This document shows, in pieces, positions 2,109 to 55,632 of a stretch of DNA of 64,000 nucleotides; positions within the stretch are counted from its first letter, which is position 1; each line of letters opens with the position of its first letter. The stretch lies in assembly GCA_012295275.1 (NCBI GenBank), contig CM022675.1, forward strand, positions 6,076,001 through 6,140,000, in the 5' to 3' direction. The position numbers and the translations under genes are program-made. The DNA is from Chrysomallon squamiferum (Eukaryota; Animalia; Mollusca). The notes under the pieces were generated by a model, which was not told the origin of the DNA, did no database searches, and saw nothing but the letters and a program-made list of their open reading frames with translations.

Positions 2109-4799
2109 GATTTTATGTTGTCATGGCAACTGAAATTTTCAAAGATGTGGAGTCTTGTTCAGGATGGTTCTGTGAAATGTATTATTACCTTACGAAATGA
2201 AATATTTGTAAAAAGTGAAACCAGTTTGAAGAAATTTGATCTGTTTAAAGAGAATCATCTCCTTGACCTCCAGAATGATGTATGTTGTTTGAACTATGAT
2301 GAAAAGAAAACAATTCTAAACAAATATCTCAAACAAAAAGATGTTACAATGGAAGGAAACGACAAAGACACTGTCATTTGTAGATCATGTACAAAATTAG
2401 GATTTCCCCAGGTGTGTGTGTTTTATGTTAATTCAAATGATGCACAAAAAAGAGGAGTTGAGTTTTTCAAGAAACCTGTAGAGTATCTCAGACAACAGCT
2501 GGAAAATATGAATAGTGACGAATCCTTACAGATCAATTATCTGGTTCTACTGCTGCTTATGTTTAAAAATGGCAGTCTGAGTATTGATTTGTTGAACCCA
2601 TTTGAAAATGACACTGACAGTGAAATAATGAAATTAGTAAAACAGCTAGAGCGTGTCTGTTCAAGTCTAAAAACCACAGATCTTGCAGATATAAAGAAAA
2701 CAGCTGATGCAATGTGTGGTACGTATCTGAAATGTTATGAGAATAAATACACATTCATTCACCAGTCAGTGTTTGACTGTTTGTTTCTGATGTTTTCATC
2801 AGAGTTTCCAAAGAAAGCAGCTGAGTTGCTAGAAGTGTGTCCTGTCTGCATGTTGCTAGAATATGTTGTGACGCCTGGTCTGTCTAACAAAAGTCACATT
2901 ACAATGACTGTCAGACCTGACTGCTTTGATTTTCTTGCTCGCAGATGTATTGACTTGATGACATCAAGCAGAGCCAGAGAAATTATTTCACATCCATCAC
3001 TGAAAGATGAAGAGTTTGTGAAGTATATCATAGTGGAAAAAACCTTTTATGGTAAATTGTCTGAAATACTGAATCAGAAACTGTATGGAATAGCACATGT
3101 TTATCCATGTGAGATAGATAAAAATTTCCTTTTTGTATTTGAGAAAATTGTACATTTCCATGACAGTCGTCCAGAGCCTCTGTATTTGAGAGATAAAGAA
3201 AAAGTGATAAGTTCATCATCTGTTGCAAGTGAGTGTGTTGTGAATGGATTAAGAACATTGTCAAGGTGTTTCATATCTCATCTGTATAAAATGGGATTCA
3301 CAGATGAGAAAGAAGAACTTTTGAATATTTCTTGTTTGTATGGTGATGAAGATGTTGTGAACATTTTTCTACGAGAAGGTGTTATTCCAACATTTGATAC
3401 TGTCATTGTAGCTGCTTGTTGCAAAATAGACAATGTTACCATAATTAAAAAACTTTTACAGTGTAAAAAAGTGAATTTGCATCAGTATTCTCAGTTGTTA
3501 CAACTTTCAATTTATTTAGGTAACATCAACATTTCCCATTTGTTGGCCGACATAATAAATAATGAGAAAGAGAACAGTAAAATCAAGGAAGAAGCAGTAA
3601 AACTGTTACTGGTTAGCTTCCATCCTCAAGTAAGATGTAGGTACTGGCTTTCTTTATGTCACATACATGAACCTTCTGTAATATTATTCATATACCTGTT
3701 AATTTACATACGTGTTGATATCAGCCATCTTTTTAAGAAACTGGTTACCACTGAAATAATAAACAAAATTGAAAACATTGCTATCATTGCTGCTGCTCAG
3801 ATGAATTCAGGAGTTATTAATGAAATAGTAAAACTGAAACCTGATTGTTTAAATGATGAGAACAGAGATAAAGTTCTACTAGCAGCAGCAGCATGGGGTT
3901 CTGTTGACACAGTGAATTTTCTCATTGACCAGAGACGTAGTGATACACATGAGAACAACTGGAAGAGAAGTCAAGTACTAAAAGTAGCAGTGATGTTTAA
4001 CAGTGCAGATGTTGTTGAGTGTTTACTTGATAAAGGAGCTGATCCTAATGCTCGAGTAGCTGTTAACAGAACACTAATTCACTGGTTTTACGTTGCACGT
4101 GATCAATGTATTTATAATATCGGCCAGTCTTTAGTAGATAAAACTGAACTACAACTATTGCCTTCTGACTCAGCTCTCCACATTTCAGTTCTACGTTCTC
4201 AGTTAGAAATTTTGAAATTATTAGTAGAAAGAAATGCTGATGTCAATGCAGTGAACTGTGAGGGGAAAACTCCACTTCATGAAGCTGCAATTGTAAACCA
4301 TCGTAGAAAAGAAATAGTTTTGTATTTATTGGAACATGGAGCTGATCCTAATTTAACAGACAAATGTAACAATTCTGTTTTACATCTAGCAGCTAAACAT
4401 GGAAATATAGAAATGGTAACAGCACTGAATCCAAAAGCTGTTCATATAAATATTAAGAACAGTAGAGGTAAAACTCCTCTTCTTACAGCTGTCAGGTACG
4501 AACAGAGCAAAGTAGTTTTGTATTTACTGGAACATGGAGCTGATCCTAATTTAAAATACAAATATAACAATTCTGTTTTACATCTAGCAGCTAAACGTGG
4601 AAACATAAAGATTGTGAAAGCACTTGTTAAGAAGGGTGCTCATGTAAATGTTATTAATGATAATGGTAAAACTCCTTTCAGTATAGCTTATGATGGATTT
4701 TGTAGTAAAACTGTTTCCTTTCTATTGAAATATGGTGCTAAATTTAATATAACTGGTTTCCAGTGGATTTTATTACAAAGAAAGCTATTTACTACATGA
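2109..4799 (+). pseudogene. Copy 1 main exon: STAND-ankyrin gene lacking Walker A/B (about 7 ankyrin repeats)
   Basis: Homology to copies 2-4 starts abruptly at 2109 (DFMLSWQ), fused to intronic (CA)n. Retains CIITLR, LGFP and FIHQSV motifs and ankyrins (KTPLHEAA, NSVLHLAA). Frame open to TGA 4799. Confidence 0.85.
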
Positions 4800-10959: not shown

Positions 10960-11383
10960 ATGGATGATGAAAAAGAGTATTCAGACAACACTATAGATGC
11001 ATATATTTCTGACTCAGATGATGAAAAAGAGGATTCAGACAGCACTATAGATGCATATATTTCTGAATTAGATGATGAAATAGAGGATTCAGACAGCACT
11101 ATAGATGCATATATTTCTGAATTAGATGATGAAATAGAGGATTCAGACAGCACTATAGATGCATATATTTCTGAATTAGATGATGAAATAGAGGATTCAG
11201 ACAGCACTATAGATGCATATATTTCTGAATTAGATGATGAAATAGAGGATTCTGACAACACTACAACTGCATCTACTTCTAATTCAGATGATGAAAAAGA
11301 GGATTCAAACAACACCATAGCTACAACTACTTCTAACTCGTATACTGCTCAGCCACAAGTGTCAAGCATCTCATTTTTTGAAG
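10960..11383 (+). CDS. Copy 2 exon A: start exon with seven 54-bp acidic repeats
   Basis: cttacag| acceptor at 10949, ATG 10960, units DDEIEDSDSTIDAYISEL, donor GAAG|gtaatt, phase 1. Confidence 0.85.
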
Positions 11384-11950
11384 GTAATTAATAACACAGT
11401 AGTTTTCTACAATTTAATTCTGTTGCTTTTACTTTCACTTTAAACTGTCTGCTGACAATTTTAAGGTTATATCACTACTGGAAAAATAAAGAATTAGTTT
11501 GGTTTGTACACACACAGTTCTCTGACTGATATTGACAAAAATTAACAATTTATAGAGTTTTATGTCGTATTTCGTTGACACATGAAAACTGTAAAACAAC
11601 ACATACACTAATTACTATTTGATTACAATCATCACCACTGTAATTATTATTCGATTTACTTCACTAATTGTAATACTGTAAAGTAATACTTATTTCTCTG
11701 CATCTACAAAAATAATCAGTTAATACATTTTTTTTAAATATTGTTATATTTAATAATAACAGATTTATTAATACTGTATTCTGCCATTGTTCCCTATATA
11801 AATAAAATCTATTTTCATAAATTCTGTTTGTAAATATTGAAATACTACACAAAGTATCATTATTATCTCTATTAAATATTGAAAAAAATACTTTTTTTAA
11901 ATTCAGTTTAAAAACTGTCGATTTTAGTAACTTCATTTACCATTTTACAG

Positions 11951-12064
11951 ATCACAAAAGAAAACAGTTAGTGACAAAACCAAATGTGAACATCAGCACA
12001 GTTCAGAATCAACAGGCCCCATCTCGCAAGAAGAAAGTTCTGTTAGGAAAGCGAGTTAAAACTT
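11951..12064 (+). CDS. Copy 2 exon B1: basic variant exon
   Basis: 114 bp, phase 1-1, canonical sites; ..NVNISTVQNQQAPSRKKKVLLGKRVKT. Confidence 0.8.
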
Positions 12065-12115
12065 GTAAGTTAAAAACTAAAAGTTTTCTTTTCTATCAGA
12101 CTCTGCAGTCTGAAC

Positions 12116-12155
<40 letters not shown>

Positions 12156-12507
12156 AACACACATTTCTACACTAACAGATTATTAAACCATTTAAAACAT
12201 TGAAATACTAGACAAAGTATCGTTATTATCTCCAGTAAATACTGAAATACCACACAGTGTCAATATGATCTCTAGAAAACATTGAAATACATCACAAAGT
12301 ATACATAAGAATAAATGGCAGTAGTTTAGATAATAGTAGCAGTAATTATAGTAAAATCAGTCATAAATGCTACAAGTTTGCTCTTTTATGACTCACTTAT
12401 TTTTGTTTTGTTATTGTGTTGCTTTTAATAATATTAGTAGAACCAAATGTAATATTGACAGTCTATAAGGCTAAGATTTGTATTAAAACTGATATTTTAC
12501 TGCTCAG

Positions 12508-12657
12508 CGAATACGGATGATGAAAAAGAGAATTCAGAAGTCAATTCTAAAACCAGAGGTGTTTCTTTCTCTGGCAACACCACAAATACATCTGCTCCTA
12601 ACTCAGATACTGTGCACCATTTACAGCCACAAGTGTCAAGTGTTACATCTTGTGAAG
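12508..12657 (+). CDS. Copy 2 exon A2: internal duplicate of the acidic exon
   Basis: ctcag| ... GAAG|gtaatt, 150 bp, open in phase 1-1; the former ATG is ACG (NTDDEKENSEV..QPQVSSVTSCE). Confidence 0.75.
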
Positions 12658-13101
12658 GTAATTAATAACACAGTACTTCTCTACAATGTAATTTACTAAT
12701 TTGATAGGAAGATCTAAACAGACAAAATAATCAAATGAAATAAAACATTTGTTTGGTTTGTACACAGACAGCTCTTCGATTTATATTGATAATAACAATT
12801 TAAAGAGTTTTAATTTCCTCTTTGTTTATAAATGAAAACGGTAGAACAAAACACACACTAATTACAATTTTATTACCACCATCACCACAGTAATTATTCT
12901 TGCATTTACTTCATTTACTATAATACTGTAAAGTAACACATAATCAGTTAATAACATTAGACACATTTTTTGAAATATAATTATATTCAGTAATAAAATA
13001 CTTTACTTTTACCGTGTGCTGCCATTGTTCTATATATATAAGAAATTTCGAAGTTCTACCAGTAGTTTTGTATTTAAATAATTTCATTTTCTGTTTCTCA
13101 G

Positions 13102-13218
13102 ATCATGCAAAACCACGATCAATGGCTGAACAAAATCTTAATTTCACCAGAGTTCAGAATTACCATAATCTATCTCATAACAGGAATGTTGTGATAGGAA
13201 ATCAAACTGTGAACACTA
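13102..13218 (+). CDS. Copy 2 exon B2: RHIM/cRHIM-like motif exon
   Basis: 117 bp, phase 1-1; EQNLNFTRVQNYHNLSHNRNVVIGNQTVNT. Confidence 0.8.
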
Positions 13219-13708
13219 GTAAGTTAAAAACTGAATTTTTATTTTCTTTGTATGTTTGGTAGGTAAGAGCACTACAAAGTTCAGTAATCATTAATACTTT
13301 TACATTAGACACAGTGACCTGAACAACACACAGAAAGACATATAGAAGTTTATAATTTATGAGGTGTACTGTGTGCTCACACATTTTCATAGAAACTAAA
13401 CAGTTATTATATAGATTATAAACTGAATCCAGGATATAAACATATGAATAAATAATTACATACATAAATGCATACATATATTTTTCACAGCCAGATCAGT
13501 AAATATATAACACTACTTTCAAGAAACAACAATAGTGGCAGTAGTTTCATAATAGTAGTAGTAATTATAGTAAAATCTCTCAAAAAGGTACAATAATAAT
13601 ATTAAAACTTTGCTGTTTTATGACAAAAATCAATAGTAATTCTACAGATCACTTTCTTAATAATTCTTTCCTTATTAGCAACAGAAACTTATTTTTACAT
13701 TGTTTCAG

Positions 13709-13741
13709 CAAAGATTGACGGAAGAACATCCAATATTAAAG
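13709..13741 (+). CDS. Copy 2 micro-exon C (33 bp)
   Basis: gtttcag|CAAAGATTGACGGAAGAACATCCAATATTAAAG|gtaatt; KIDGRTSNIK; conserved at 29694 and 52358. Confidence 0.75.
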
Positions 13742-13952
13742 GTAATTTCTTTTTCTTTACTTCTATACTTTTGATAAACCTGCATTAATAACAAGATAAT
13801 CATCTAGTTGTTTTTAATCTGATCATTAATGTTTTCGTAAATTCTGATGAATGATTCTAAGAAATGTTTATAATAATTTTGTTTACATAGTAAAAACAAT
13901 TATATAACATTTTATAATAAATTTTAATATTTGTTAACTTATTGCGATACAG

Positions 13953-15800
13953 AGTCTACAAAGTCAGTTTTGAACTCAGTTCAGTGGAGTCTCTATGTTC
14001 AAACAAGAGCAGAAGAAATAGGTGTTGCAGTTTTGAAGAACAATGGTGTTGTGATTATAATAGGATGTCCAGGTTCAGGAAAGACAACTCTAGCTTTGAG
14101 CATGATGAAACAGATAGAAAATGAAGAGACAAGAGAACCTTACTTGCTGACTCATCACTCTGAATTCAATGATATCCCTGTATCTACAGATATAAAATGT
14201 GTTGTAGTTGTTGATGACATATTTGGTAAGACTAATCTCAGTTCACATTTTATGTCAGCTTGGCAACTGAAATATTTAAAGATGTGGAGTCTTGTTCTGG
14301 ATGGTTCTGTGAAATTGATTATTACCTTACGAAATCAAATATTTGCAGAATGTAAAACAAGTTTGAAGGACTCTGATCTGTTTAATGAGAATCATCTCCT
14401 TAACCTGCAGAGTGATGACTGTTGTCTGAATTATGATGAAAAGTATAGAATTCTAAACAAATATCTCAAACAAAAAGATGTTACAATGCACGAAGAGGAC
14501 AAAGAAACTGTCATTGAGGAATCATGTACAGAGCTAGGGTTTCCTCAGGTATGTGTGTATTATGTTAATTCAAGTGAGGCACGAAAAAGAGGAGTTGAGT
14601 TTTTTAAGAAACCTGTGGAGTATCTCAAATAAGAACTTGAAAATATGTAAAGTGACAAATCCTTACAGACCAATTACAAAACACACTAGTCTCACACATA
14701 TACAGACAGTAACTGATGTAATGTCTGGTACCTATTTGAAATGTTATGACCATAGATACATATTTATTCACCAGTCAGTGTTTGACAGTTTGTTTCTGAT
14801 GTATCTGTGTAAAACAGAAAATATGTATCAGAAAATCAACTTTTGGATATTTCTTGTTTATTTGGTGATGAAGATGTAGTGAGTGTTTTTTTTTTCTAAA
14901 ATCAGTTGTTATTCCAACTGTTGACACACTAAGTTTAGCTGCATGTTCCAAAACAGATAATTTTATCATACCAAATAAACTGTTGTGATATAAAAAGATG
15001 AATTTGAGTAAGTATTCCTCGTTGTTAAATCTTTCAATCTATTCATGTAACATGAATGTTGCCTTTTTTTGGCTGACATTATAAATATTGATTTGTATTT
15101 ACTGGAACATGGAGCTGATCCTAATATGGCAAACAGTGTAACAATTCTGTTTTACATCTAGCGGCTAAACATGGAAATATAAAAATTGTGACAGCACTGA
15201 TTGAAAAAGGTGTTGATGTTAACATTGTAAACAACAAAGGCAAAACTCCTCTTCAGACAGCTCTAAATTGTTATGAGCGGTATTCATATAAACATTGTCA
15301 AGTAGTTTTATATTTACTGAAACATGGAGCTGACCTTAATTTAAGAGACAGTGATAACAATTCTGTTTTACTCATGGCAGCGAAACGTGGTAATTAATAA
15401 AGGTATAGATGTAAATATTATAAACAATTGAAGTGAATCCCCTCTTATTATAGTTGTGATGTACAAAGACGACCAAGTAGTATTGCATTTACTGGAACAC
15501 AGAAATTGTGGTATTCAACAGACAGTGATAACAATTGTCTTTTATAGAAAGCAGCAAAATGTGGAAATGTAGAATTCTGAAAGCACTGATTGAAAAAGGT
15601 GTTGATGTAAATATTAAAAACATTGAAGGTGAAACTTTTCTACTTACAGCTGAGAACGTTAAACGGAACAAAGTAGTTTTTTTTTTAAATTTTATAGAAC
15701 ATAGAGCTGATCCTAATATAACACAAATATTAGGAAAATAGAGAAATTGTGAGAGCAGTGATTGATAAATGTGCTGATATAAATCTTAAAAGCGGTCGTA
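13953..15800 (+). pseudogene. Copy 2 main exon: STAND NTPase with nonsense codon, deletions and ankyrin remnants
   Basis: GCPGSGKTT and VVVVDDIFG intact; TAA at 14630-14632; then deleted/frameshifted linker and ankyrin fragments (15090-15800), ending at the LTR element. Confidence 0.9.
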
Positions 15801-25874: not shown

Positions 25875-26195
25875 CTAAGTTGTATATCTAAATAAGAAAT
25901 ATAGCTTTGACTGCAAAACAAAAGTTACCTAGCATTTGACCATTTTTGACAGTTTCACTGATGGTGCTAATACAAATTTAAAGGAAAAAGAAAAAAGTTT
26001 TGAAAAATAAATATATAATATTAAAAAAAGAAGAAGAAATAGTCATTAGGTTTCTTATTCGGTATTTGTGCAATAATACAGGTACTTTTAATTAAGCAGA
26101 TCTACTACTTAGAACATTTTAATTGAAATAACATAACAAATATGGTTAATGCAATGAAAACTGGAAGTGAAGCTTAATTAGCAAACATTCATAGA

Positions 26196-26237
<42 letters not shown>

Positions 26238-27392: not shown

Positions 27393-27449
<57 letters not shown>

Positions 27450-28331: not shown

Positions 28332-28526
28332 ATGGATGATGAAAAAAAGGATTCAGACAACACCACAGCTGCATCTACTTCTGTCTCAGATGATGAAAAG
28401 ATGAGGACATCACAGCTGCATCTACTTCTGACTCAGATGATGAAAAAGAGGAGGACATCACAGCAGCAACTACTTCAGACATGGATACTGCACAGCCACA
28501 AGTGTCAACAATCACATCTTGTAAAG
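28332..28526 (+). CDS. Copy 3 exon A: acidic exon (3 units) with a 1-bp deletion
   Basis: tttcag| at 28326, ATG 28332; GAAAAG vs GAAAAAG near 28400 shifts the frame; downstream in-frame ATG at 28481; donor AAAG|gtaatt. Confidence 0.75.
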
Positions 28527-29125: not shown

Positions 29126-29242
29126 ATCACACAAGAACACAGAGAGTGACAGAACAAAATGTAAATATCAGCTGAGTTCACAATTACCATGCCCTATCTC
29201 ATAACAAAAATGTTGTGATAGGAAATCAATTTGTGAACACTA
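29126..29242 (+). pseudogene. Copy 3 exon B: RHIM-like exon with in-frame TGA
   Basis: 117 bp, canonical sites; EQNVNIS*VHNYHALSHNKNVVIGNQFVNT; TGA at 29173-29175. Confidence 0.8.
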
Positions 29243-29693: not shown

Positions 29694-29726
29694 TAAAGAG
29701 TGATGGAAGAGCATCAAATATGAAAG
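29694..29726 (+). CDS. Copy 3 micro-exon C
   Basis: atttcag| ... AAAG|gtgatt, 33 bp, KSDGRASNMK, phase 1-1. Confidence 0.75.
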
Positions 29727-29929: not shown

Positions 29930-32900
29930 TGTCTACCACATCAAGGATAAACTCAATTGATTGGAATCTCTACGTTGAAACAAGAGCAGAAGAAATAGGT
30001 GTTGCACTTTTGAAGAAGAAAGGTGTTCTGATTGTAATAGGCTGTCCAGGTTCAGGAAAGACAACTCTAGCTTTCAGCATGATGAGACAGATAGAAAAAG
30101 AAGAGAAAAGAGAATCTTACTTGCTGACTCACCACACTGAATTCAATGATATCCCTATATCGAAAGATAAAAAATGTATTATTCTCATCGATGACATATT
30201 TGGTAAAACTAATCTCATTTCAGATTTTAGGCTGTCATGGCAACCAAAATTTCCAACGGTATGGAGTCTTGTTCAGGATGGTTCTGTGAAATGTATTATT
30301 ACCTTACGAAATCAAATATTTGCAGAAAGTAAAACCAGTTTGAAGGAATTTGATCTGTTTAATGACAATCATCTTCTTGATCTTCAGAGTTATGAATTTT
30401 GTCTCAGTTGGGATGAAAAGAATAAAATTCTAAACAAATATCTCAAACAAAAAGATGTTACAATGGAGGAACATGACAAACGGGATGTCATTCACAGATC
30501 ATGTACAGAGCTAGGATTTCCTCAGGTATGTGTTTATTATGTTAATTCGAGTGATGCACAAAAAAGAGGAGTTGAGTTTTTTGAGAAACCTGTAGAATAT
30601 CTGAGAGAACAATTGGGAAATATGAAAAGTGAGCAATCCTTACAGATCAATTATCTCGTTCTACTGCTGATCATGTTTCAGCAAGGCAGTCTCAGTGTTG
30701 ATTTGTTGAACCCATTTGAAAATGACACTGACAAAAGTGACATAATGGAATTAGTAAGAGTGCTGGAGGGTGCCTGTCTGAGTTTAAAAGACACAAGTCT
30801 CACACATATAAAAGCAGCAGCTGATGTAATGTGTGGCACCTATTTGAACTGTTACAACAATAGATACACATTTATTCATCAATCAGTGTTTGACTGTTTG
30901 TTTCTGATGTTTTCATCAGAATTTCCAAAGATAGCAGCAGAGTTGCTAGAAGTGTGTCCTGTCTCCATGTTGTTAGAGTATGTTGTGACGCCTGGAGTGT
31001 CTAACAAAAGTCACACTACAATGACTGTGAAACCTGGCTGCTTTGATGTTCTTGCTCGCAGATTTACTGACTTGCTGGCATCAAGCAGAGCCAGAGAAAT
31101 TATTTCATATCCATCACTGAAAGATGAAGAGTTTCTAAAATATCTCATTGAGAAAAAACACTTCTATGGTAAATTGTCCGAAATACTGCATCAGAATCTG
31201 CATCGAGTAAGGCATTATTTAGCATTTCGGGTATGTGAAGATTTCCTTCATAAATTTGAGAAAATTGTACATTTCCATTACAGCGATTCAGAGTACTGGA
31301 AATCATCCTACTGGTCTTTGATAGTTAAAGAAAGAAGGATGTATTCGTCATCTCTTGCAAGTGAATGTGTTGTGAATGGCCTGAGGACACTGTCGAGGTG
31401 TTTCACATCAGATCTGTGTAAAATGGAATCCGACTATAACAAAAAAGAAGTTTTGAATATTTCTTGTTTGTTTGGTGATGAAGATGTTGTGAAAATGTTG
31501 TTACAATCAGGTGCTGTTCCAACACCAGATACTTTCAGTGCAGCTGCACGTTCAGAAACCGATAATGTTACCATACTGAAAGAACTGTTACAGTATACAA
31601 AGGTGAATTTGAAACAGTATTCCCGGTCGTTACAACTTTCAATTTATTCACGTAACATGAACATTGCCTGTTTTTTGGCTGACTTTATGAATAATGAGGA
31701 AGGCAACAGTAAATTCAAGGAAGAAATTGTAAAACTATTATTGGTTAAGTTCCATGGACAAGTGAAACCATTCACTGAAGAATATGTTGATACAAGCTCT
31801 CTTTTTAAGAAACTGGTTACCATTGAAATAATAAACAAAATTGAAAACATTGCCATCATTGCGGCTGGTCAGATAAATTCAGGAGTTATAAAAGAAATAG
31901 TAAAACTGAAACCTGATTGTTTAAATGATGAGAACAGAGATAAAGTTCTTTTAGCAGCAGCAATGTGGGGTTCTGGTGACACCGTGGCTTTCCTCATTAA
32001 ACAGATACACAATGACACAGATGAGAACAGCTGGAAGAAAAGTCAAGTACTGAAAGTAGCAGTGATGTTTAACACCGCAGATGTTGTTCAGTGTCTACTT
32101 GATAAAGGAGCTGATCCTAATGCTAATGTAGCTGTTAATAGGACATTGATTCAATGGTTTGAAAAGAAAACTGGATTAGAATGTTTGGATTCTGACTCAC
32201 CTCTCCATATCTCAGTCCGGCTTGGTGACTTAGATTTGTTGAAATCACTGGTAAAAAGAAATGCTGATGTTAATGCATTGAACAGTCAGGGAAAAACTCC
32301 ACTTCATGATGCTGTAATTGTAAAGGAACATAGAAAAGAATTAGCTTTGTTTTTGCTAGAAAATGGAGCTGATATTAACATTACAGATCAGAATAACAAT
32401 TCAGCTTTACACCTAGCAGCTACACTTGGATATCTGGATGTTCTGACAATACTTTTTGAAAATGGTGCTAAGGTGAACATTATTAACAACGAAAGCAAAA
32501 CTCCTCTTTTTGCAGCCCTCACTTCTTATGAACGACATCTATCTCTGAATTGTTACAAAAAGCATCAATCTGCAAGTGATAAACGATGGAAAGTTGTTTT
32601 CTATCTAGTGGAACATGGAGCTGATCCTAATATAACAGACAGTGATAACAATTCTGTTTTACATTTAGCAGCTGAATATGCAAAAATAGAAATTGTCACA
32701 GCGCTGATAGAAAAAGGTGCTGATGTAAATATTAGAAACAATGAAGGTAAAACTCCTCTTCTTACAGCTATAAATCATCAATACCTCTGCCACGATTCTC
32801 TTAATGATGAACATTGTGCAGTAGTTTTGTATTTGCTGGAACATGGAGCTGATCCTTTCTTGACAGACTGTGATAACAATTGTGTTTTACACTTAGCACC

Positions 32901-35900
32901 TCAAGTAAACAAAATTGAAATTTTGAAAGCACTCATAGAAAAAAGTGTTGATGTCAATATTAAAAACAGTAGAGGTGAAACTCCTCTTTATACAGCTATA
33001 AACAGATATAAATATGGTACATACTTTGATGATAAACATTGCGAAATAATTTTGTATTTACTTGCACAGGGAGCTGAACCTAATTTAATAGACAGTGATA
33101 GCAATTCTGTTTTACACTTAGCAGCTAAACATGGAAAAATAGAAATTGTGACAGCACTGATAGAAAAAGGTGTTGATATAAACATTAGAAACAATGAAGG
33201 TGAAACTGCTCTTTTTAGAGCTGTTAACTGTTACCAAAACAAAGTAGTTTTGTATTTGCTGGAACATGGAGCTGATCCTAATTTAAGAGACAGTGAAAAC
33301 AATTCTGTTTTACACTTAGCAGCTAAATATGGAACAATAGAAGTTGTGACAGCACTGATTGAAAAAGGTGTTGATGTAAATATTAGAAACAATGAAGGTG
33401 AAACTCCTCTTCTTACAGCTATAGATCATCAATACCTCTGTGATGGTTCTCGTAATGAACATTGTGCAGTAGTTTTGTATTTGCTGGAACATGGAGCTGA
33501 TCCTAATTTAACAGACTGTAACAACAATTCTGTTTTACACTTAGCAGCTAAATATGGAACAATAGAAGTTGTGACTGCACTGATTGAAAAAGGTGTTGAT
33601 GTAAATATTAGAAACAATGAAGGTGAAACTCCTCTTCTTACAGCTATAGATCATCAATACCTCTGTGATGGTTCTCGTAATGAACATTGTGCAGTAGTTT
33701 TGTATTTGCTGGAACATGGAGCTGATCCTAATTTAACAGACTGTAACAACAATTCTGTTTTACACTTAGCAGCTAAATATGGAACAACTGAAGTTGTGAC
33801 AGCTCTGATTGAAAAAGGTGTTGCTGTAAATATTAGAAACGATGATGGTAAAACTCCTCTTTTTATAGCTGTGAACTCTCAACAGAACAAAGTAGTTTTG
33901 TATTTGCTGGAACATGGAGCCGATCCTAATTTAACAGACAGATATAAGAATTCTTCTTTACACATAGCAGCTAAAATTAGAAATATAGAAACTGTGAAAA
34001 CTCTGATTGAGAAAGGTGCTAAAGTGAATATTGTAAACATAGAACATAAAACTCCTCTATATACAGCTGTATACAACAGACAGAACGAAGTTGCTGATTA
34101 TTTACTGCAACATGGAGCTGACCCTGAATTAAAAGACAGATATAATAATTCTGTTTTACACACAGCAGCTAAACAAGGATATGTAGACATTGTGAGAACA
34201 TTGATAAAATACGGTGTTGATATCAGTATTAGAAACAATGAAGGTAAAACTCCTCTTTTCACAGCTCATCTCTACAAACAGAACAATGTAGTTCTCTGTT
34301 TACTAGAACATGGAGCTGATCCTCATTTAATAGACAGATGTAACAATTTTGTTTTACACATAGCGGCTAAAGAAGGAAATATAGAACGTGTGACAGCACT
34401 GGTAAAAAACGGTGTTGATAAGAATATTAGAAACAATGAAGGTAAAACTCCTCTTTCTACAGCTCATTTCTTCAAACAAAACAAAGTAGTTTTGTGTTTA
34501 CTGAAACATGGAGCTGATCCTCATTTAAAGGACAATGACAACAATTCTGTTTTACACATAGCAGCTAAGGAGGGAAATATAAAATTTGTCACAGCATTGA
34601 TCAATGAAAGTGTTGATATAAATATTAAAAACAATAAAGGTGAAACTCCTCTTTTTGCAGCTGTTCTCTTCACACAGAACGATGTAGTTTTCTGGTTGCT
34701 GGAACATGGAGCCGATCCTCATTTAAAAGACAATGACAACAATTCTGTTTTACACATAGCAGCTAAAAAGGGAAATACAGAGATTGTCAGAGCATTGATT
34801 AATAAAAGTGTTGATGTGAATATCAAAAACAATAAAGGTGAAACTCCTCTTTTTACAGCTGTTCTCTTCACACAGAACGATGTAGTTTTGTGGTTGCTGG
34901 AACATGGAGCTGATCCTCATTTAAAAGACAATGACAACAATTCTGTTTTACACATAGCAGCTAAAAAGGGATATAAAAAAATTGTCAGAGCATTGATTAA
35001 TAAAAGTGTTGATGTGAATATCAAAAACAATAAAGGTGAAACTCCTCTTTTTACAGCTGTTCTCTTCACACAGAACGATGTAGTTTTGTGGTTGCTGGAA
35101 CATGGAGCTGATCATCATTTAAAGGACAATGACAACAATTCTGTTTTACACATAGCGGCTAAAGAGGGAAATACAGAGATTGTCAGAGCATTGATTAATA
35201 AAAGTGTTGATGTGAATATCAAAAACAAAAAAGGTGAAACTCCTCTTCATCTAGCTGTGGACCGCAAACAGTCCAAAATAGTTTTGTGTTTGCTAGAACA
35301 TGGAGCCGATCCTCATTTAAAGGACAATGACAACAATTCTGTTTTACACATAGCGGCTAAAGAGGGAAATACAGAGATTGTCAGAGCATTGATTAATAAA
35401 AGTGTTGATGTGAATATTAAAAACAATAAAGGTGAAACGCCTCTTTTGACAGCTGTTCATTACGTACAGAATAATGTAGTTTTGTGTTTACTGGAACTTG
35501 GAGCTGATCCTCATTTAAAGTACAATGACAACAATTCTGTTTTACACATAGCGGCTAAAGAGCGAAATATAGAAATTGTCAGAGCATTGATTAATAAAAG
35601 TGTTGATGTGAATATTAAAAACAAAAAAGGTGAAACTCCTCTTCATCTAGCTGTGAACCGCAAACAGTCCAAAATAGTTTTGTGTTTGCTAGAACATGGA
35701 GCCGATCCTCATTTAAAGGACAATGACAACAATTCTGTTTTACACATAGCGGCTAAAGAGGGAAATACAGAGATTGTCAGAGCATTGATTAATAAAAGTG
35801 TTGATGTGAATATCAAAAACAATAAAGGTGAAACTCCTCTTTTTACAGCTGTTCTCTTCACACAGAACGATGTAGTTTTGTGGTTGCTGGAACATGGAGC

Positions 35901-37197
35901 TGATCCTCATTTAAAAGACAATGACAACAATTCTGTTTTACACATAGCAGCTAAAAAGGGATATAAAAAAATTGTCAGAGCATTGATTAATAAAAGTGTT
36001 GATGTGAATATTAAAAACAATAAAGGTGAAACGCCTCTTTTGACAGCTGTTCATTATGTACAGAATAATGTAGTTTTGTGTTTACTGGAACTTGGAGCTG
36101 ATCCTCATTTAAAGTACAATGACAACAATTCTGTTTTACACAGAACAGCTGAACAGGGAAATATAGAAATTGTCAGAGCATTGATTAATAAAAGTGTTGA
36201 TGTGAATATTAAAAACAATAAAGGTGAAACGCCTCTTTCTACAGCTCATTTCTTCAGACAAAACAAAGTAGTTCACTGTTTACTGAAACATGGAGCTGAT
36301 CCTCATTTGAAAAACAGATTTAACAATTCTGTTTTATACATAGCAGCTAAAAAGGGAAATATAAAAATTGTCAGAGTATTGATCAATGAAAGTGTTGATA
36401 TAAATATCAAAAACAATAAAGGTGAAACTCCTCTTTTTACAGCTGTTCTCTTCACACAGAACGATGTAGTTTTGTGGTTGCTGGAACATGGAGCCGATCC
36501 TCATTTAAAAGACAATGACAACAATTCTGTTTTACACATAGCAGCTAAAAAGGGAAATATAGAAATTGTCAGAGCATTGATTAATAAAAGTGTTGATGTA
36601 AATATTAAAAACAATAAAGGTGAAACTCCTCTTTCTACAGCTCATTTCTTCAAACAAAACAATGTAGTTCACTGTTTACTGGAATGTGGAGCTGATCCTC
36701 ATTTGAAAAACAGATTTAACAATTCTGTTTTACACATAGCAGCTAAGGAGGGAAATATAAAAATTGTCAGAGCATTGATCAATGAAAGTGTTGACATGAA
36801 TATTAAAAACAATAAAGGTCAAACTCCTCTTTTTGTAGCTGTTCTCTTCACACAGAACGATGTAGTTTTGTGTTTACTGGAACATGGAGCTGATCCTAAT
36901 TTAACAGACACTGACAACAATTCTGTTTTACACATAGCAGCTAAAAAGGGAAATACAGAGATTGTCAGAGCATTGATTAATAAAAGTGTTGATGTAAATA
37001 TTATAAACAATGAATGTGAAACTCCTCTTCTTACAGCTATGAAACACAAACAGTCCAAAATAGTTTTATGTTTACTGGAACATGGAGCTGATCCTAATTT
37101 AACGGACATTGACGAGAATTCAGCCTTAGATGTAGCAGCTGAACATGGATTAACAGAAGTTGTGATGACTCTTGTGGAAAGAGGTGTTGATGTATAA
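29930..37197 (+). CDS. Copy 3 main exon: STAND (nSTAND3-like) NTPase + helical linker + about 50 ankyrin repeats; NLR-like receptor
   Basis: 7268 bp open exon after tgcag|. Walker A GCPGSGKTT (30040), Walker B IILIDDIFG, sensor CIITLR, GxP motif LGFP, winged-helix FIHQSV; ankyrins from ~32040 to the end. Confidence 0.92.
34250..37190 (+). repeat. Coding tandem array of ~15 x 198-bp (two-ankyrin, 66 aa) units with high internal identity
   Basis: Repeating GADPHLKDNDNNSVLHIAAKxG..IVRALINKSVDVNIKNNKGETPLxxAxxxxQ at 198-bp period. Confidence 0.95.
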
Positions 37198-39663
37198 ACT
37201 CGTAATATTATGGGGACAAAAACCTATCAAGATGGTTAGTGGTAGTTATATGATAGGAAAGAAAATTGTTTCCTATTTATTGAGTCATAGAAAATAAAAT
37301 GATAAAAAGTATTTTGTATAAATAAAACTAAAAATAATAATATTTACTGCATCATGGAGACAAATGTAATTTGACTGGTGACAGGAAAATTGGTGACTTG
37401 TTCCAAAATGTGAAAAATGATTTTACATAGAACTGTAGAGGAGACCATCAGCTATAAAATAAGATCAATATTTCTAAGACATCTCTAAAATTGACAAGAA
37501 AGTGTTCCGAATCCAGGTTTGACAGTATAGTCATCTTGGAGAACATTGACTTTAAAGAAGTTGTCATTTGCGATGTGTTTGAAATTCATAAATATATAGA
37601 TTTTTTTTAATAATCAACAATAAAGAAATAACGAAGAATTTCACTTTTATGTTTGTAAGTTAAGAAATATGAAAATGCTGTCATAACTTGGGTGTTTTAT
37701 TATTCAAATTCTTTCTTTTTCGTTGTACTACCATATCTCATCACAGAAGTCAGTTCTTTCATCACTGGTACTGGATTCGTCGCAGTCTGCTGGTTTTTGA
37801 TGGGCTATATTCATTGCTTCTAGATGTGTTTATACAAATAGTGTTGGTGTTTCCTGTCCAGTCCTAGTGACATTATTATTTCTTTCGTTGGAGCTGTCTT
37901 AAATTAAGCAAGGTCACCAATTCTTGATCAGCATCAGAATATTTCTTCTCAAAAATGGAGCCTGGATTTAAAATTAGTGTATGAACAGTACGATGATTTT
38001 CTTACATTTATACTCAAGATACAGGGCTTTTTTTTTAGGGGATGGGTTGAGTGTTTCTTTTGTTGTTTTTTTTACACCACTTGTGGAGTCTCCTTTGTTG
38101 ATCAGAAAGGAACTTCCCAAAAGAAACGAATTCTTTTCATAATATGTTAATGAAGCCATACACAATCTTAAATGATAAATGGTATTTTGGTCAAAAATTT
38201 CATAATGGGATTTTCCATCATTTATTTTGAATGCGTTTTTCTAGTTTCTCCAATTCTCTGATCCTTGACAACAAAATCAGTTCATTCCTTTAGAGATTCT
38301 AATAAATCGATTGTGTTTTTCTAGCACTATCAATGTAATCATCACTGATCTTGTCAGTCCCTTTCTGGTTATCTGAATCATCATGAATTGAAACTCCATA
38401 TTCATCACTACCTTCGTCAGAATCTGACAACAAACTGTTCACTTGGGCTTTGTCCAATATAATGTATATAATGAAAAGCATTCTCGTAAATGAGGATTCA
38501 AAACAGAAGTATGTTGGGGATATCCCAAATGGGAGATGGGAGAATAATATAATTTAAAAAATGTGCTTTTCTTTATTTGGTTTATATAAAGAATCATCTA
38601 TAATTAATGATGATTATCAATAGGACAGGGTTACAAAGCAAATACATCTAAGAGACATTTCTTCTGAACTGAAAACAACAACAAACAAACAAAAAACTAC
38701 TTTATTATTAACTGTAAACTGTTATAAATAATTTAGCAAATGAAAGTGGAATACAAAATTACTTATTTAAGCATGTGTTTTTTTGTGAAATGCGATGCTG
38801 TCTTTAGAATACTGAGAAAGCTTAGCATAGTAATACTCAGCATACTGGATATGCCAGACCATCATCTCTATCTTGGCAACAAGACATTTTGTTTATCTTT
38901 AGAAATTATTTACTTTCGTTGATCATGATATCACTGTTAATATGATAACACTTCTATAAAATAACAAACACGATATTTCCGGCTTTTCAGTGATAACAGG
39001 GGATATCCCTGATAGAAGGGCCAAGATTATTATAATAATATTTTCTTCTTAGTTTTGTTCAGATAAATAATGATGATTGTTAGTAAGAGACGATTACTAA
39101 TTGCAGGTGTTAGATAATTTTTATTATATACGTTAACAAGACTGAGAATACTTAAAACAGAAGTGATACTCCTGTTGCTACTTTTGTATTTTATGAGTGA
39201 CAACTGACTCAGTTTGCCGTCTCGAATAACATTTCACTGAATTCTTCTTCCCATTCTGAGACAGATTATTTAATCAAATTAAAATTAATATCCCAAAATA
39301 AATGTTCAAATAGTTTTGTTTGAAAAAGGTGTGGATAATAATGAATATAACTGTTGTTGTGAAGGAAACTAATTTATGTTTGTAATTTCTGAGGTATGAA
39401 GTTTATATTAATTATGTACTTCATTCTGATAGACATTGACTTGTGAAATATTTTTAACTGTTTCATCTGGCTTTATTGTTTATGTAATGTTTTCAGATAG
39501 TTATGTCTTAAAAATACGTACATTTTTTAACTGACTGGTTTTATCTAATTGCTTATTTTTTATGTTAAATTTTTTGTTTGCTCAGTGTATTTACTGAAAG
39601 TGCACTTCAAAAGTGAAAAAAAATTCTTGATATATATATATGACGCCATTTTATTTATGTTTT

Positions 39664-45143: not shown

Positions 45144-45190
<47 letters not shown>

Positions 45191-51288: not shown

Positions 51289-51436
51289 ATGGATGATGAA
51301 AAAGAGGAGGACAACACCACAGCTGCATCTACTTCTGACTCACATGATCAAAAAGAGGAGGACAACACCACAGCAGCAACTACTTCAGACATGGATACTG
51401 CACAGCCACAAGTGTCAACAGTCACATCTTCTAAAG
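51289..51436 (+). CDS. Copy 4 exon A: acidic start exon (2 units), intact
   Basis: MDDEKEEDNTTAASTSDSHDQKEEDN..QPQVSTVTSSK; 148 bp, donor |gtaatt. Confidence 0.8.
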
Positions 51437-52357
51437 GTAATTAATAGCACAGTAGTTTTCTACAATGTAGTTTACTAATTTGATGGGCAGGTAAAACCAA
51501 ACAAAATTAATTTTTATAACTGTAACAGTGCAGTTTTTCAGTATATTGTTTAATCTCAAGCAGTTATTGTTTATTTCTGTTGTTTTTACTTTCACTTTAA
51601 AGTGTGTGCTGACAATTTTATGGTTATAACACTATTGAACATACACACTTTTCTGATTTATATTGCTAAAAAATTAACAATTCAAAAACCTTTATATCCT
51701 GTTTCTTTGACCTATGAAAACTTTAAAGCAAAACACACACCAATTACTATTTTGATTACAATCATGACTGTTGTAATTATTTTTGAATTTACTTTTGTTT
51801 ATTTTAATACTGTAAAGTAATACTTATTTCTTAGCACCTACAATAATAATCAGTTAACAAACAATATTAAACAGATTTCTTTTATATAATTATATTTAAA
51901 AATAATACATTTTATTAATACTGTATCCTGTACTGTTCTATATATAGATAAAAAAAACATTTTTAGAAATTTTCTACCAGACTCTGTGATCAGAACAACA
52001 GATACAACACACACACACATCACACACACATATTTCTAAATGGTGTGCATGTTTCAGTGATTTTAAAAGAGCATTAATAAACATTGAAATGCTACGAAAA
52101 GTATATATAAAACAACAACAATAATAACAACAATGAGAAAATCAATTAGAACAATAAATAAATTAATAATATTATCAAGAAACAACAACAATAGCAGTAC
52201 TTATTATAGTAAAATCAATCAGAAAGATATAAAAATAATGTTACACATTTGCTCTTTTAAGACTTAGCTGAAGTGTAATTGTACAAGTTGCTGTTAATAA
52301 TTATTGTTTAATTGTAAACAACAAAAAGTTATTCTTTTTATTTTCATATTATTTCAG

Positions 52358-52390
52358 TAAAGAGTGATGGAAGAGCATCAAACATGAAAG
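52358..52390 (+). pseudogene. Copy 4 micro-exon C with mutated donor
   Basis: Same 33 bp as 29694-29726 but AAAG|atgact. Confidence 0.7.
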
Positions 52391-52595
52391 ATGACTTTTT
52401 TGTCCTTACTTTCTTTTGAAAAATGACCATTAATAACAAAATAATTATCTAGTTGCTTTTAATCTTAACACTGATGAATAAATATTATAAACTAATTCTT
52501 ACTAAGAAATAATAAAGTTAATGTTTATATACTACAAACAATTATAAAATAGTTTATAATAGATTCTAATTTTTTTTTAACTTGTTCTGATGCAG

Positions 52596-55500
52596 TGTCT
52601 ACAACAACAAGGATGCACTCAGTTGACTGGAATCTCTATGTTGAAACAAGAGCAGAAGAAATAGGTGTTGAACTTTTGAAGAAGAATGGTGTTGTGATTG
52701 TAATAGGCTGTCCAGGTTCAGGAAAGACAACTCTAGCTTTGAGCATTATGAGGCAGATAGAAAAAGAAGAGAAAAGAGAATCTTACTTGCTGACTCATCA
52801 TATTGAATTCAATGATATCCCTATATCTAAAGATAAAAAATGTATTATTCTCATTGATGACATATTTGGTAAAACTAATCTCATTTCAGATTTTAGGCTG
52901 TCACTGCAACCAACATTTCCATCGGTGTGGAGTCTTGTTCAGGATGGTTCTGTGAAATGTATTATTACCTTACGAAATCAAATATTTGCAGAAAGTAAAA
53001 CCAGTTTGAAGGAATTTGATCTGTTTAATGAGAAACATGTTCTTGATCTGCAGAGTCCTGAATTTTGTCTCAGTTGGGATGAAAAGAATAAAATTCTAAA
53101 CAAATATCTCAAACAAAAACATGTTACAATGGAGCAACGTGACAAACGGAACGTTATTCACCAAGCATGTACGGAGTTAGGATTTCCTCAGGTATGTGTT
53201 TATTATGTTAATTCTACTGATGCACAAAAAAGAGGAGTTGAGTTTTTTAAGAAACCTGTAGAATATCTCAGAGAACAATTGGGAAATATGAAAAATGATG
53301 AATCATCACAGATCAACTATCTGGTTCTACTGCTGATCATGTTTCAGCAAGGCAGTCTCAGTATTGATTTGTTGAACCCATTTGAAAATGACTCTGACAT
53401 AATGGAATTAGTAAGAATGCTGGAGGGTGCCTGCCTGAGTCTAAAAGACACAAGTTTCACACATATAAAAGCAGCAGCTGATGTAATGTGTGGTACCTAT
53501 TTGAATTGTTACAACAATAGATACACATTTATTCACCAGTCAGTGTTTGACTCGTTGTTTCTGATGTTTTCATCAGAATTTCCAAAGAAAGCAGCAGAGT
53601 TGCTAGAAGTGTGTCCTCTCTCAATGTTGTTAGAATATGTTGTGACGCCTGGAGTGTCTAACAAAAGTCACATTACAATGACTGTGAAACCTGACTGCTT
53701 TGATGTTCTCGCTCGCAGATTTACTGACTTGCTGGCATCAAGCAGTGCCAGAGAAATTATTTCACATCCATCACTGAAAGATGAAGAGTTTCTAAAATAT
53801 CTCATTGAGAAAAAACACTTCTATGGTAAATTGTCCGAAATACTGGAAACGGAACTGCATCGAAGAAGTTATTATTTTGCATTTCAGGTAGGCGAAAATT
53901 TCATTGATATATATGAGAATATTTCACATTTCCATGACGGTCATACAGACTGTTGGACATTATCCTACCTGTATTTGACAGTTAAACAAAACAGATGTAT
54001 TCATCATCTGTTGCAAGTGAGTGTGTTGTGAATGGTCTGAGAACACTGTCGAGGTGTTTCACATCAGATCTGTGTAAAATGGAGTTCACAGATCAGAAAA
54101 ACGAACTTTTGAATATTTCTTGTTTGTTTGGTGATGAAGATGTTGTGAAAATTTTGTTACAATCAGGTGTTATTCCAACACTAGATACATTCAGAGCAGC
54201 TGCATGTTCAAAAACCGACAATGTTACCATAATGAAAGAACTGTTACAGAGTAGAAAGGTGAATTTGAAACAGTATTACGAATCCTTAAAACTTTCAATT
54301 TTTTCACGTAACATGAACATTGCCTGGTTTTTGGCTGAAATTATGAATAATGAGGAAGGCAACAGTAAATTTAAGGGAAAACTTGTAAAACTGTTATTGG
54401 TTAGCTTCCATATACAACTAAAATCACTCACTGATGAATTTGTTGATACAAGCTCTCTTTTTAAGAAGCTGGTTACCATTGAAATAATAAACAAAATTGA
54501 AAACATTGCCATCATTGCGGCTGGTCAGATGAATTCAGGAGTTATTAAAGAAATAGTAAAACTGAAACCTGATTGTTTAAATGATGAGAACAGAGATAAA
54601 GTTCTTTTAGCAGCAGCAATGTGGGGTTCTGCTGATACAGTGGATTTCCTCATTGACCAGAGACGTAGTGATACACAAAAGAACAACTGGAAGAAAAGTC
54701 AAGTACTGAAAGTAGCAGTGATGTTTAACAGTGTAGATGTTGTCCAGTGTCTACTTGATAAAGGAGCTGATCCTAATACTAATATATCAGTTGATAGGTC
54801 ATTGACTGATTTGTTTGAACAGAAAACTAGATTAAAATACTTCGATTCTGATTCACCCCTCCACACATCAGCTCGGCTTGCTGACTTACATTTGTTGAAA
54901 TCACTGGTGGAAAGAAATGCTGAGGTTAATGCAGTGAACAGTGAAGGGAAAACTCCTCTTCATGAAGCTGTATCTGTGAAGGAACATAGAAAAGAATTCG
55001 TTGTTTATTTACTGCAACATGGAGCTGACCCTACTTTAACAGACAGATATAACAATTCTGTTTTACACAATGCAGCTAAACAAGGAAATATAGAAATTAT
55101 GACACTACTGAGAGAAAACGGTGTTGATATGAATATTAGAAACAATGAAGGTGAAACTCCTCTTTCTACAGCTGTTCACTACAAACAGAACAATGTAGTT
55201 TTGTATTTACTGAAACATGGAGCTGATCCTCATTTAAAAGACAATGACAACAATTCTGTTTTACACATAGCAGCTAAAAAGGGATATACAAAAATTGTCA
55301 GAGCATTGATTAAAAAAAGTGTTGATGTAAATATTAAAAACAATGAAGGAGAAATTCCTCTTTTTACAGCTCTGAAACACAAACAGTCCAACATAGCTTT
55401 GTCGTTACTGAAACATGGATCTAATCCTAATGTAATAGACAATGATAAGAATTCTGCCTTACATGTAGCAGCTAAATATGGATTAACAGTAGTTGTGAAG

Positions 55501-55632
55501 GCCCTTGTGGAAAAAGGTGTTGATGTAAATACTCCTAATGCAAGGGGGCAAACACCTCTTGAGATGGTTAGTGGTCCACTTAGGAAACAACAGGAGATTG
55601 TGTCCTATTTATTGAGTCATAGTGCTAAGTAA
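52596..55632 (+). CDS. Copy 4 main exon: STAND NTPase + about 9 ankyrin repeats, single 1-bp frameshift
   Basis: ORFs 52595-54031 and 53995-55632 join into one paralog of copy 3; one base missing near 53990 (AAA CAA AAC AG ATG vs AAA GAA AGA AGG ATG). Could be a young pseudogene or a base-call error. Confidence 0.85.

What the first reader, a model, noticed from the sequence alone, without database searches (positions are those of the whole stretch)
34250..37190. Combinatorial ankyrin 'code': four cassette types shuffled in an invariant scaffold
Seen: within 198-bp units the scaffold is nearly constant, while the helix after TPL comes in discrete types: A=F(T/A/V)AVLFT, B=HLAV(D/N)RK, C=LTAVHYV, D=STAHFF(K/R). 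Order is D A A A B C B A C D A D A, flanked by FTAHLYK and LTAMKHK. The partner repeat (KEGNTE, KKGYKK, KKGNI..) reassorts partly independently. A non-periodic order implies repeated unequal crossover or conversion. Established: these positions include the inner-helix binding face varied in DARPins, and fungal NLR repeats diversify by shuffling. Inference: a recombination-driven specificity generator.
Basis: partly seen in the sequence, partly recalled or inferred. Interest (0 to 1): 0.8.

Follow-up and report, generated by a model that had tools for sequence, protein, structure and literature searches.

The report
Shuffled ankyrin sensor, snail NLR-like ATPase
In what is likely a snail genome, a gene for an NLR-like ATP switch ends in 13 near-identical double-ankyrin units that carry four helix variants in irregular order, likely reshuffled by ordinary germline recombination into a variable binding surface as in fungal immune receptors; this copy's front end is damaged and its target is unknown.

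Summary
In detail: 13 tandem 198-bp units read D A A A B C B A C D A D A, and the four types are discrete. The array is the 3' end of a 7.3-kb exon encoding an nSTAND3 STAND ATPase plus about 48 ankyrin repeats, in a tandem cluster of four paralogs; the closest named relatives are from Gigantopelta and Haliotis. Recombination is supported: unit A3 is a clean A/B mosaic, and tandem duplication alone cannot give the order. Positive selection is not shown: the cassette evolves twice as fast as the scaffold, with omega indistinguishable from 1. Public contigs confirm one junction and splicing, and hint at fewer B/C units in one of three DNA runs. This copy has a frameshift and a stop in its small N-terminal exons and has lost its C-cap, while the main exon stays open. 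Nine of 150 relatives have similar conserved arrays. It works like the highly conserved repeat sensors of fungal NLRs, a known mechanism; the molluscan nSTAND3-ankyrin form was not described in the papers searched. Nothing supports somatic shuffling.

The parts
34447..37020 (+). Core array: 13 units of 198 bp, each a TPL-type plus an SVL-type ankyrin repeat; order D A A A B C B A C D A D A
   Evidence: AlphaFold2 pLDDT 95.9 for four units with alignment, TM 0.91 to ankyrin-B repeats
34456..36861 (+). The 13 variable 30-nt cassettes (unit codons 4-13; starts 34456, 34654, 34852, 35050, 35248, 35446, 35644, 35842, 36040, 36238, 36436, 36634, 36832): second half of helix 1, the turn and the start of helix 2
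35041..35238 (+). Unit A3, a mosaic: type-A 5' part, type-B partner repeat
   Evidence: 18 sites match A4 then 8 match B2; exact p 1.2e-5, about 0.02 after 1716 triplets
34249..34446 (+). Flanking unit F (FTAHLYK), single copy
   Evidence: exact contigs in DNA runs X1, X2, X3 and RNA run X7
37021..37197 (+). Terminal unit L (LTAMKHK) and early TAA stop; its cassette is related to type B and to the last unit of the 52-55 kb paralog
37195..37310 (+). Decayed C-terminal capping repeat: stop plus a 1-nt insertion relative to the 52-55 kb paralog
   Evidence: contigs without differences span the stop in X1, X2, X3, X5
32197..34248 (+). Older, divergent ankyrin repeats of the same exon; several TPL-type repeats carry insertions of up to 17 aa at the position of the cassette
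29971..30447 (+). nSTAND3 NTPase domain, Walker A GCPGSGKTT at 30040-30066, Walker B IILIDD
   Evidence: Pfam PF20720 E 6e-25, 88 bits against cut-off 27; sequence
29930..37197 (+). Main exon, open throughout (NTPase, helical region, about 48 ankyrin repeats)
   Evidence: 48 hits of a home-made ankyrin profile
28332..28526 (+). Exon 1 (acidic, low complexity) with a 1-nt frameshift near 28400 relative to paralogs
29126..29242 (+). Exon 2 (117 nt, N/Q-rich, VxxG motif) with in-frame TGA at 29173; open in three paralogous copies
   Evidence: splice 28524-29124 GT..AG in RNA run X7
29694..29726 (+). Exon 3 (33 nt) holding the first in-frame ATG (29720) that is open into the main exon
   Evidence: predicted from splice sites and paralog conservation, its splicing not seen in RNA
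51289..55632 (+). Closest paralog: 3 TPL-type units plus C-cap against 24 here; exon 2 deleted, exon 3 donor lost, frameshift near 53990
2109..4799 (+). Paralog lacking the first 106 residues of the main exon (no Walker A/B), otherwise open
10960..15800 (+). Broken paralog (nSTAND3 with stops, deletions, ankyrin remnants)

Best explanation
The array is the C-terminal ankyrin region of an nSTAND3 STAND ATPase gene in a tandem cluster, and it likely serves as the ligand-sensing surface of an NLR-like intracellular receptor that germline unequal crossover and gene conversion likely expanded and reshuffled. Shown: architecture, discrete types, a mosaic unit, an order that tandem duplication alone cannot give, and 24 TPL-type units against 3 in the nearest paralog. 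Inferred: crossovers fall in the near-identical scaffold, so each 30-nt cassette moves as a block and the scaffold is homogenised; the cassettes arose by point mutation from two older unit types still seen in the paralog; each order presents a different row of residues on the inner-helix face; binding would release the ATPase to oligomerise. This copy cannot make its normal N-terminus, so it is either a signal-less sensor that starts at ATG 29720 and would need an intact paralog to signal, or a recently disabled gene.
For: nSTAND3 E 6e-25 with intact Walker motifs. Similarity to consensus 0.87 over 13 x 66 aa, my approximation of the 0.85/100-aa criterion of PMC4986451. Mosaic A3. PHI-like test p 0.0014, 0.011, 0.025 for three window sizes. 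A 253-nt identical tract five units apart. Contracting tandem duplications leaves DABCBACDA, 9 units. Cassette tree length 4.05 against 1.93 for the rest; rest omega below 1 (2dlnL 8.2). Cassette dN 0.57 against unit-wide dS 0.23; by minimal counts p 0.008. The highest-entropy position is ankyrin position 13 here and in Haliotis P0008, and among the most variable in P0013. Nine of 150 relatives have conserved ankyrin-like arrays (abalones, Gigantopelta and bivalves). Relatives carry caspase, HEPN, SAM or DUF4559 N-termini. Four lesions lie in 461 nt of small exons and cap and none in 7,265 nt of main exon (post hoc p 1e-5 to 2e-4). RNA run X7 holds a spliced junction and exact array pieces. 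Bacterial Avs5, an antiphage sensor, has nSTAND3 plus C-terminal repeats.
Against: Omega in the cassette is not distinguishable from 1 (2dlnL 0.38; nonsynonymous 1.02 against synonymous 0.92 per site, p 0.52), and synonymous change is also raised there (p 0.07). The overall share of four-gamete pairs (0.21) is matched by recurrent-mutation simulations without recombination (p 0.04 to 0.86 over 8 settings), so the count of 10 breakpoints is no evidence by itself. No ligand, immune induction or cell-death activity is known. Three of four paralogs in the window are broken and this one is damaged at both ends. Most relatives have no conserved array (67 of 150 have 3 or more ankyrin hits; 9 have an array). 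The RNA contigs could come from a near-identical paralog.
Confidence: 0.6

Rival explanations
1. Neutral turnover in a decaying gene: the array expanded and recombined because identical repeats do so, the cassette differs only because it is the least constrained part of the repeat and escapes homogenisation once diverged, and no specificity is selected.
For: Cassette omega about 1 with raised dS; frameshift, stop and lost cap in this copy; three broken neighbours; PMC5120217 (abstract only) reports relaxed purifying selection among new repeat copies generally.
Against: Scaffold omega is below 1; all lesions avoid the 7.3-kb exon; the same helix end varies in independent abalone arrays; against the paralog's unit, type A differs by 5 replacement and 0 silent changes and type D1 by 6 and 1, though these counts are too small to be significant.
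Confidence: 0.25
2. The units are real but their number or order is an assembly artefact or a mix of two haplotypes.
For: No listed contig spans the array; identical tracts reach 253 nt; how the window was assembled is unknown.
Against: A 209-nt RNA contig matches the A4-to-C2 junction exactly, a string found once in the window and 7 mismatches from its nearest copy; depth of the type-B piece is 1.45 and 1.76 times single copy in X1 and X2, against 1.51 expected from the assembly; the frame is open over all units.
Confidence: 0.07
3. A non-immune scaffold or signalling protein, like the P-loop plus ankyrin proteins TANC and ANKRD50, whose repeat number drifts.
For: TANC2- and ANKRD50-named clusters appear among feature neighbours at scores 0.87; no immune assay exists.
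Against: The six listed neighbours at 0.9 or above are mollusc-dominated nSTAND3/ankyrin clusters; the gene sits in a birth-and-death cluster; relatives swap caspase, HEPN and other N-termini.
Confidence: 0.05
4. A somatic diversification system, as in lamprey VLRs, in which cassettes are copied into the array in haemocytes.
For: Orphan ankyrin fragments lie in the cluster at 20.6, 23.1, 43.6 and 46.2 kb.
Against: Those fragments are about 50% identical in protein, three of the four contain stops, and none carries cassette A-D; the array is complete in genomic DNA; the type-B piece is the same in DNA runs of three studies.
Confidence: 0.03

Closest known systems
Fungal NLRs with high-internal-conservation ankyrin repeats (Podospora Pa_3_8560, Pa_2_8180; PMC4986451, PMC13449251)
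   Same: STAND ATPase followed by near-identical ankyrin repeats; variation on inner helices; repeat gain, loss and exchange.
   Different: nSTAND3 rather than NACHT; the unit is a 66-aa pair in which one repeat carries the cassette; variation comes as four multi-residue blocks; positive selection and repeat-number polymorphism are shown in Podospora but not here; no enzymatic effector domain.
Molluscan nSTAND3-ankyrin proteins (Gigantopelta aegis LOC121387848 and others; Haliotis rufescens LOC124125871, caspase-nSTAND3-ANK; H. asinina P0013)
   Same: Same family: 36-39% identity to Gigantopelta over the first 732 aa; abalone members have conserved arrays with discrete helix-1 variants in irregular order.
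   Different: All are uncharacterised database entries; their arrays use different unit sequences and periods (33, 62-68), so they expanded independently; this copy lacks an intact N-terminus.
Bacterial Avs5 (Sir2-nSTAND3-TPR/Sel1/PPR; bioRxiv 10.1101/2025.07.08.663546)
   Same: nSTAND3 ATPase with variable C-terminal repeats in a tested immune sensor.
   Different: Antiphage, Sir2 effector, not ankyrin; no direct sequence comparison was made here.
Designed ankyrin repeat proteins (DARPins)
   Same: Gapless 33-residue register and the same fold; constant frame with variable helix-1 end.
   Different: Here the TPLH histidine and the turn glycine positions vary and the preceding hairpin hardly does; only every second repeat carries the cassette.

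Membership tests
nSTAND3 STAND NTPases (PF20720) | Profile match with Walker A and Walker B | tested here: met
   E 6e-25, profile 1-154 of 155; motifs
NLR in the strict sense | NACHT or NB-ARC domain | tested here: not met
   No NACHT or NB-ARC hit at E 0.001 for this copy; paralogs score below the cut-offs
NLR in the strict sense | Leucine-rich repeat sensor | tested here: not met
   Ankyrin repeats only
NLR-like STAND receptors with high-internal-conservation repeats | Repeats at least 85% alike over at least 100 aa behind a STAND ATPase | tested here: met
   Mean identity to consensus 0.873 over 858 aa for the 66-aa unit (my approximation, T-REKS not run; mean pairwise identity 0.80); criterion from PMC4986451
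NLR-like STAND receptors with high-internal-conservation repeats | N-terminal effector or signalling domain | tested here: not met
   Exon 1 frameshift and exon 2 stop in this copy; no Pfam family for four exon-2 peptides; present in relatives
NLR-like STAND receptors with high-internal-conservation repeats | Recombination among repeats | tested here: met
   Mosaic A3, PHI-like test; overall four-gamete share uninformative
NLR-like STAND receptors with high-internal-conservation repeats | Positive selection at binding-face positions | tested here: inconclusive
   Rate doubled, omega not different from 1
NLR-like STAND receptors with high-internal-conservation repeats | Repeat-number polymorphism among individuals | tested here: inconclusive
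   Type-B piece at 1.45, 1.76 and 0.91 times single copy in X1, X2, X5 (1.51 expected); type-C piece 0.96 in X5 (1.62 expected); contig depth is not a copy number
NLR-like STAND receptors with high-internal-conservation repeats | Ligand-triggered oligomerisation and cell death or immune signalling | not testable with these tools
   Needs experiments
RHIM / cRHIM amyloid signalling motifs | Core tetrad (V/I)-Q-(V/I/L/C)-G | tested here: not met
   Exon 2 has VVIG or VVLG, which fits only the looser VxxG cRHIM (definitions from PMC13506858); no Pfam hit; no RHIM chain found in PDB at E 10
RHIM / cRHIM amyloid signalling motifs | Conserved position before the NTPase in relatives | tested here: inconclusive
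   Pattern in 10 of 52 relatives with a long N-terminus (3.1 expected by shuffling), 8 of them 62-78 aa before Walker A; the pattern was chosen after seeing five of these
Somatically assembled receptors (VLR type; features recalled) | Incomplete germline gene with flanking donor cassettes | tested here: not met
   Complete array in DNA; the orphan fragments in this window match no cassette type; the rest of the genome was not available

The most novel reading that the evidence does not exclude
nSTAND3-ankyrin genes are a large, undescribed intracellular receptor repertoire that stands in for the scarce classical NLRs of gastropods, signals through a short N-terminal amyloid-type motif or swapped effector domains, and diversifies by block shuffling of ankyrin cassettes; this copy is a maintained, signal-less sensor whose array differs between individuals.
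Probability: 0.2. Interest if true: 0.75.

Novelty: new variant of a known kind. Interest (0 to 1): 0.48.

Why it matters
One gastropod survey found a single NACHT-LRR gene in Aplysia (PMC9334734, passages), so how snails sense intracellular microbes is open. Such surveys count NACHT and LRR domains and would miss nSTAND3-ankyrin genes. If these genes are receptors that diversify by repeat shuffling, molluscs use the mechanism described in fungi, on a different ATPase. The locus gives a cheap test: one amplicon of about 3 kb, four discrete cassette types. The mechanism itself is not new, and this copy may be a dying gene.

Tried and rejected
No genome is held for this window, so family size and other donors could not be counted. 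Single-sequence folding failed (pLDDT 33); the model made with a 22-row alignment gave secondary structure but no burial values, so surface exposure is inferred from alignment, not measured. A search with four array units found only generic ankyrin proteins at 28-38% identity, 18 of 7,989 scored candidates. The Hudson-Kaplan count and the overall four-gamete share were dropped as evidence after simulations. The RHIM reading failed Pfam and PDB tests; no Atlas result was obtained for that peptide. No solved structure resembles the NTPase region at E below 0.3. Bins of the array without contig cover (about 35.0-35.3 kb in X1, X3, X5) were not read as deletions, since contigs that fit several places are laid at one. 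Whether the exon 1 frameshift and exon 2 stop are shared by other individuals is not settled: no differing letter or indel was listed there, but cover at those bases could not be confirmed. Summed depth up to 200 times single copy over conserved ankyrin stretches suggests many related copies but is not a count. My automatic 'ankyrin-like' flag counted 4 arrays; reading the units by eye gave 9, one with only three units and one (P0168) without ankyrin profile hits. Look-ups of earlier findings by place and sequence gave nothing relevant.
Full report
Observation. The region 34249-37197 holds 15 units in a 198-bp register: a flank F, 13 core units and a terminal L. Each unit is a pair of ankyrin repeats, one starting TPL and one starting SVL. 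Over codons 4-13 distances are 0-2 nt within a type and 7-17 between types, and 24 of 64.5 minimal replacements fall there (p 1e-5). The scaffold is conserved, not invariant: 71 of 198 columns vary.

The gene. The array ends a 2,430-codon open frame that begins with an nSTAND3 NTPase (E 6e-25) and has about 48 ankyrin repeats. The best named relatives of the first 732 aa are Gigantopelta aegis proteins at 36-39% and Haliotis proteins at 22-33% (13 hits of 4,451 candidates; one search adds 4 of 7,997), so the source is likely a gastropod. The window holds four paralogs and a duplicated block of about 13 kb at a 23-kb offset. The nearest paralog has 3 TPL-type units and a C-cap against 24 here, so the expansion is specific to this copy. 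The family is wide: 952 clusters at E 0.001. Of the best 150, 67 have 3 or more ankyrin hits and 9 have conserved ankyrin-like arrays by eye, from abalones, Gigantopelta and bivalves. Among 27 relatives chosen for long N-termini, 4 have HEPN_DZIP3, 2 DUF4559 and 1 SAM; one abalone protein has a caspase domain.

How the order arose. Undoing tandem duplications reduces the type string only to DABCBACDA, so duplication alone is not enough. Unit A3 matches A4 at 18 sites and then B2 at 8 (exact p 1.2e-5, about 0.02 over 1,716 triplets). A 253-nt identical tract lies five units apart, and incompatibility rises with distance (p 0.0014-0.025). Against this, the overall four-gamete share is reproduced by recurrent mutation alone in most simulations, so I rely on the tracts only. 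The cassettes have precursors: the paralog's penultimate unit differs from types A, C, D and F by 5-8 nt in the cassette, and type B shares the QSK ending and has no silent difference from the paralog's last unit. Exchange between paralogs is also suggested: coding dS between this gene and its nearest paralog is 0.136, while the duplicated flanks differ by 0.022-0.029.

Structure and selection. With an alignment, four units fold as canonical ankyrin repeats (pLDDT 95.9; TM 0.91 to ankyrin-B). The cassette covers the second half of helix 1, the turn and the start of helix 2. In the gapless alignment to DARPin 6MOL, codons 5, 8 and 9 fall on positions that vary among its repeats, codons 4, 7, 10 and 13 on constant ones. 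The standard list of randomised DARPin positions was not in the passages read (PMC8683736). Podospora ankyrin NLRs vary on inner helices and hairpins, the binding face (PMC4986451, section 17). The cassette changes about twice as fast as the rest, whose omega is below 1, but its own omega does not differ from 1. Its dN exceeds the unit-wide dS (p 0.008), yet its dS is raised too. Diversifying selection fits these numbers but is not shown.

Other individuals and RNA. Eleven runs were listed, nine holding part of the stretch; five were laid, all as short contigs. RNA run X7 has a GT-AG joint from exon 1 to exon 2, the F unit, and an exact 209-nt piece across the A4-C2 junction that is unique in the window. 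The type-B piece has no differing letter in X1, X2 and X5. Its depth is 1.45, 1.76 and 0.91 times the mean of single-copy pieces, with 1.51 expected; a type-C piece in X5 gives 0.96 with 1.62 expected. For the single-copy mean I used 4, 3 and 3 pieces and left out pieces outside 33.9-37.4 kb in X2 and X5, several at about half depth (30-50). This is a hint that X5 has fewer B and C units, no more.

State of this copy. Comparison with paralogs gives three small upstream exons. Exon 1 has a 1-nt frameshift, exon 2 an in-frame TGA, and the C-cap is cut by a stop followed by a frameshift; contigs of four DNA runs span that last stop unchanged. The first in-frame ATG open into the main exon is at 29720, behind 13 upstream ATGs in the modelled exons. 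Four lesions in 461 nt and none in 7,265 nt argue that the main exon is still maintained (post hoc; conversion from intact paralogs could also purge lesions). In 61 of 132 relatives with a Walker A the protein starts within 60 aa of it, which may reflect real short forms or incomplete gene models.

A side lead. Exon 2 encodes an N/Q-rich peptide with VVIG or VVLG, about 59 aa before Walker A in the modelled protein. A similar pattern lies 62-78 aa before Walker A in 8 of 52 relatives. It fits the loose cRHIM pattern but not the RHIM tetrad (PMC13506858, passages) and failed Pfam and PDB tests. N-terminal amyloid motifs are known in fungal and bacterial NLRs (PMC7889193, passages). It remains a resemblance.

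Comparison with what is known. It works like the high-internal-conservation repeat sensors of fungal NLRs (PMC4986451, passages and section 17). PMC13449251 (abstract, section 12, first part of section 13, passages) extends such repeats to ATPase proteins of animals, plants and bacteria, includes nSTAND3 among the ATPases screened, and does not mention molluscs in its main text. It is not an NLR in the strict sense. Searches for nSTAND3 with ankyrin (2 papers), nSTAND3 alone (5 papers, 4 listed), gastropod NLR ankyrin STAND expansion (none), abalone NLR ankyrin NACHT and conserved-repeat NLRs found no description of this molluscan family; the library lacks most subscription journals. The Gigantopelta genome paper lists ankyrin repeat proteins among expanded immune families without detail (PMC7895826, passages). 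Avs5 gives a tested precedent for nSTAND3 sensors (three passages).

Verdict. Real feature, known mechanism, apparently undescribed molluscan variant. Recombinational shuffling is about 85% likely, a selected sensing role about 55-60%, somatic shuffling about 3%.

Noticed in passing
window 29930-32300 against 52600-54960; flanks 19039-28250 against 41942-51200: The coding exons of the two nearest paralogs differ five times more at silent sites (dS 0.136) than their duplicated flanks (0.022-0.029), and codons 410-489 have dN 0.225 against dS 0.125; this suggests replacement of one coding region from an older paralog.
   Followed up: partly
window 29126-29242, 1722-1838, 11951-12064, 13102-13218: A 114-117-nt symmetric exon with an N/Q-rich peptide and VxxG motif before the NTPase; stopped in this copy, deleted in the 52-kb paralog.
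   Followed up: partly
window 10963-11320: Exon 1 of the broken paralog holds 6.6 copies of a 54-bp acidic repeat; the same exon has 2-3 units in other paralogs.
   Followed up: no
window 1-1250 and 10900-12750: The small N-terminal exons are themselves duplicated in tandem in two paralogs.
   Followed up: no
window 20646-20947, 23142-23286, 43550-43851, 46151-46295: Orphan ankyrin fragments, copied with the segmental duplication, about 50% identical to the array and mostly with stops.
   Followed up: partly
window 17845-19068: Short frames with a CCHC-like knuckle and integrase-like words next to the duplication breakpoint at 19039; likely a retroelement remnant (recalled resemblance; Pfam gave only a weak zinc-finger hit).
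   Followed up: partly
window 32500-33850: Older TPL-type repeats carry insertions of 9-17 aa exactly where the cassette lies, and two 225-bp units are near-identical (96%): an earlier round of expansion.
   Followed up: no
P0008, P0013, P0134, P0052 (Haliotis): Abalone nSTAND3 proteins have independent conserved ankyrin arrays of up to 27 double units with discrete helix-1 variants; P0008 has an N-terminal caspase domain.
   Followed up: partly
window 57839-58827: A two-copy repeat of about 482 bp in AT-rich sequence.
   Followed up: no
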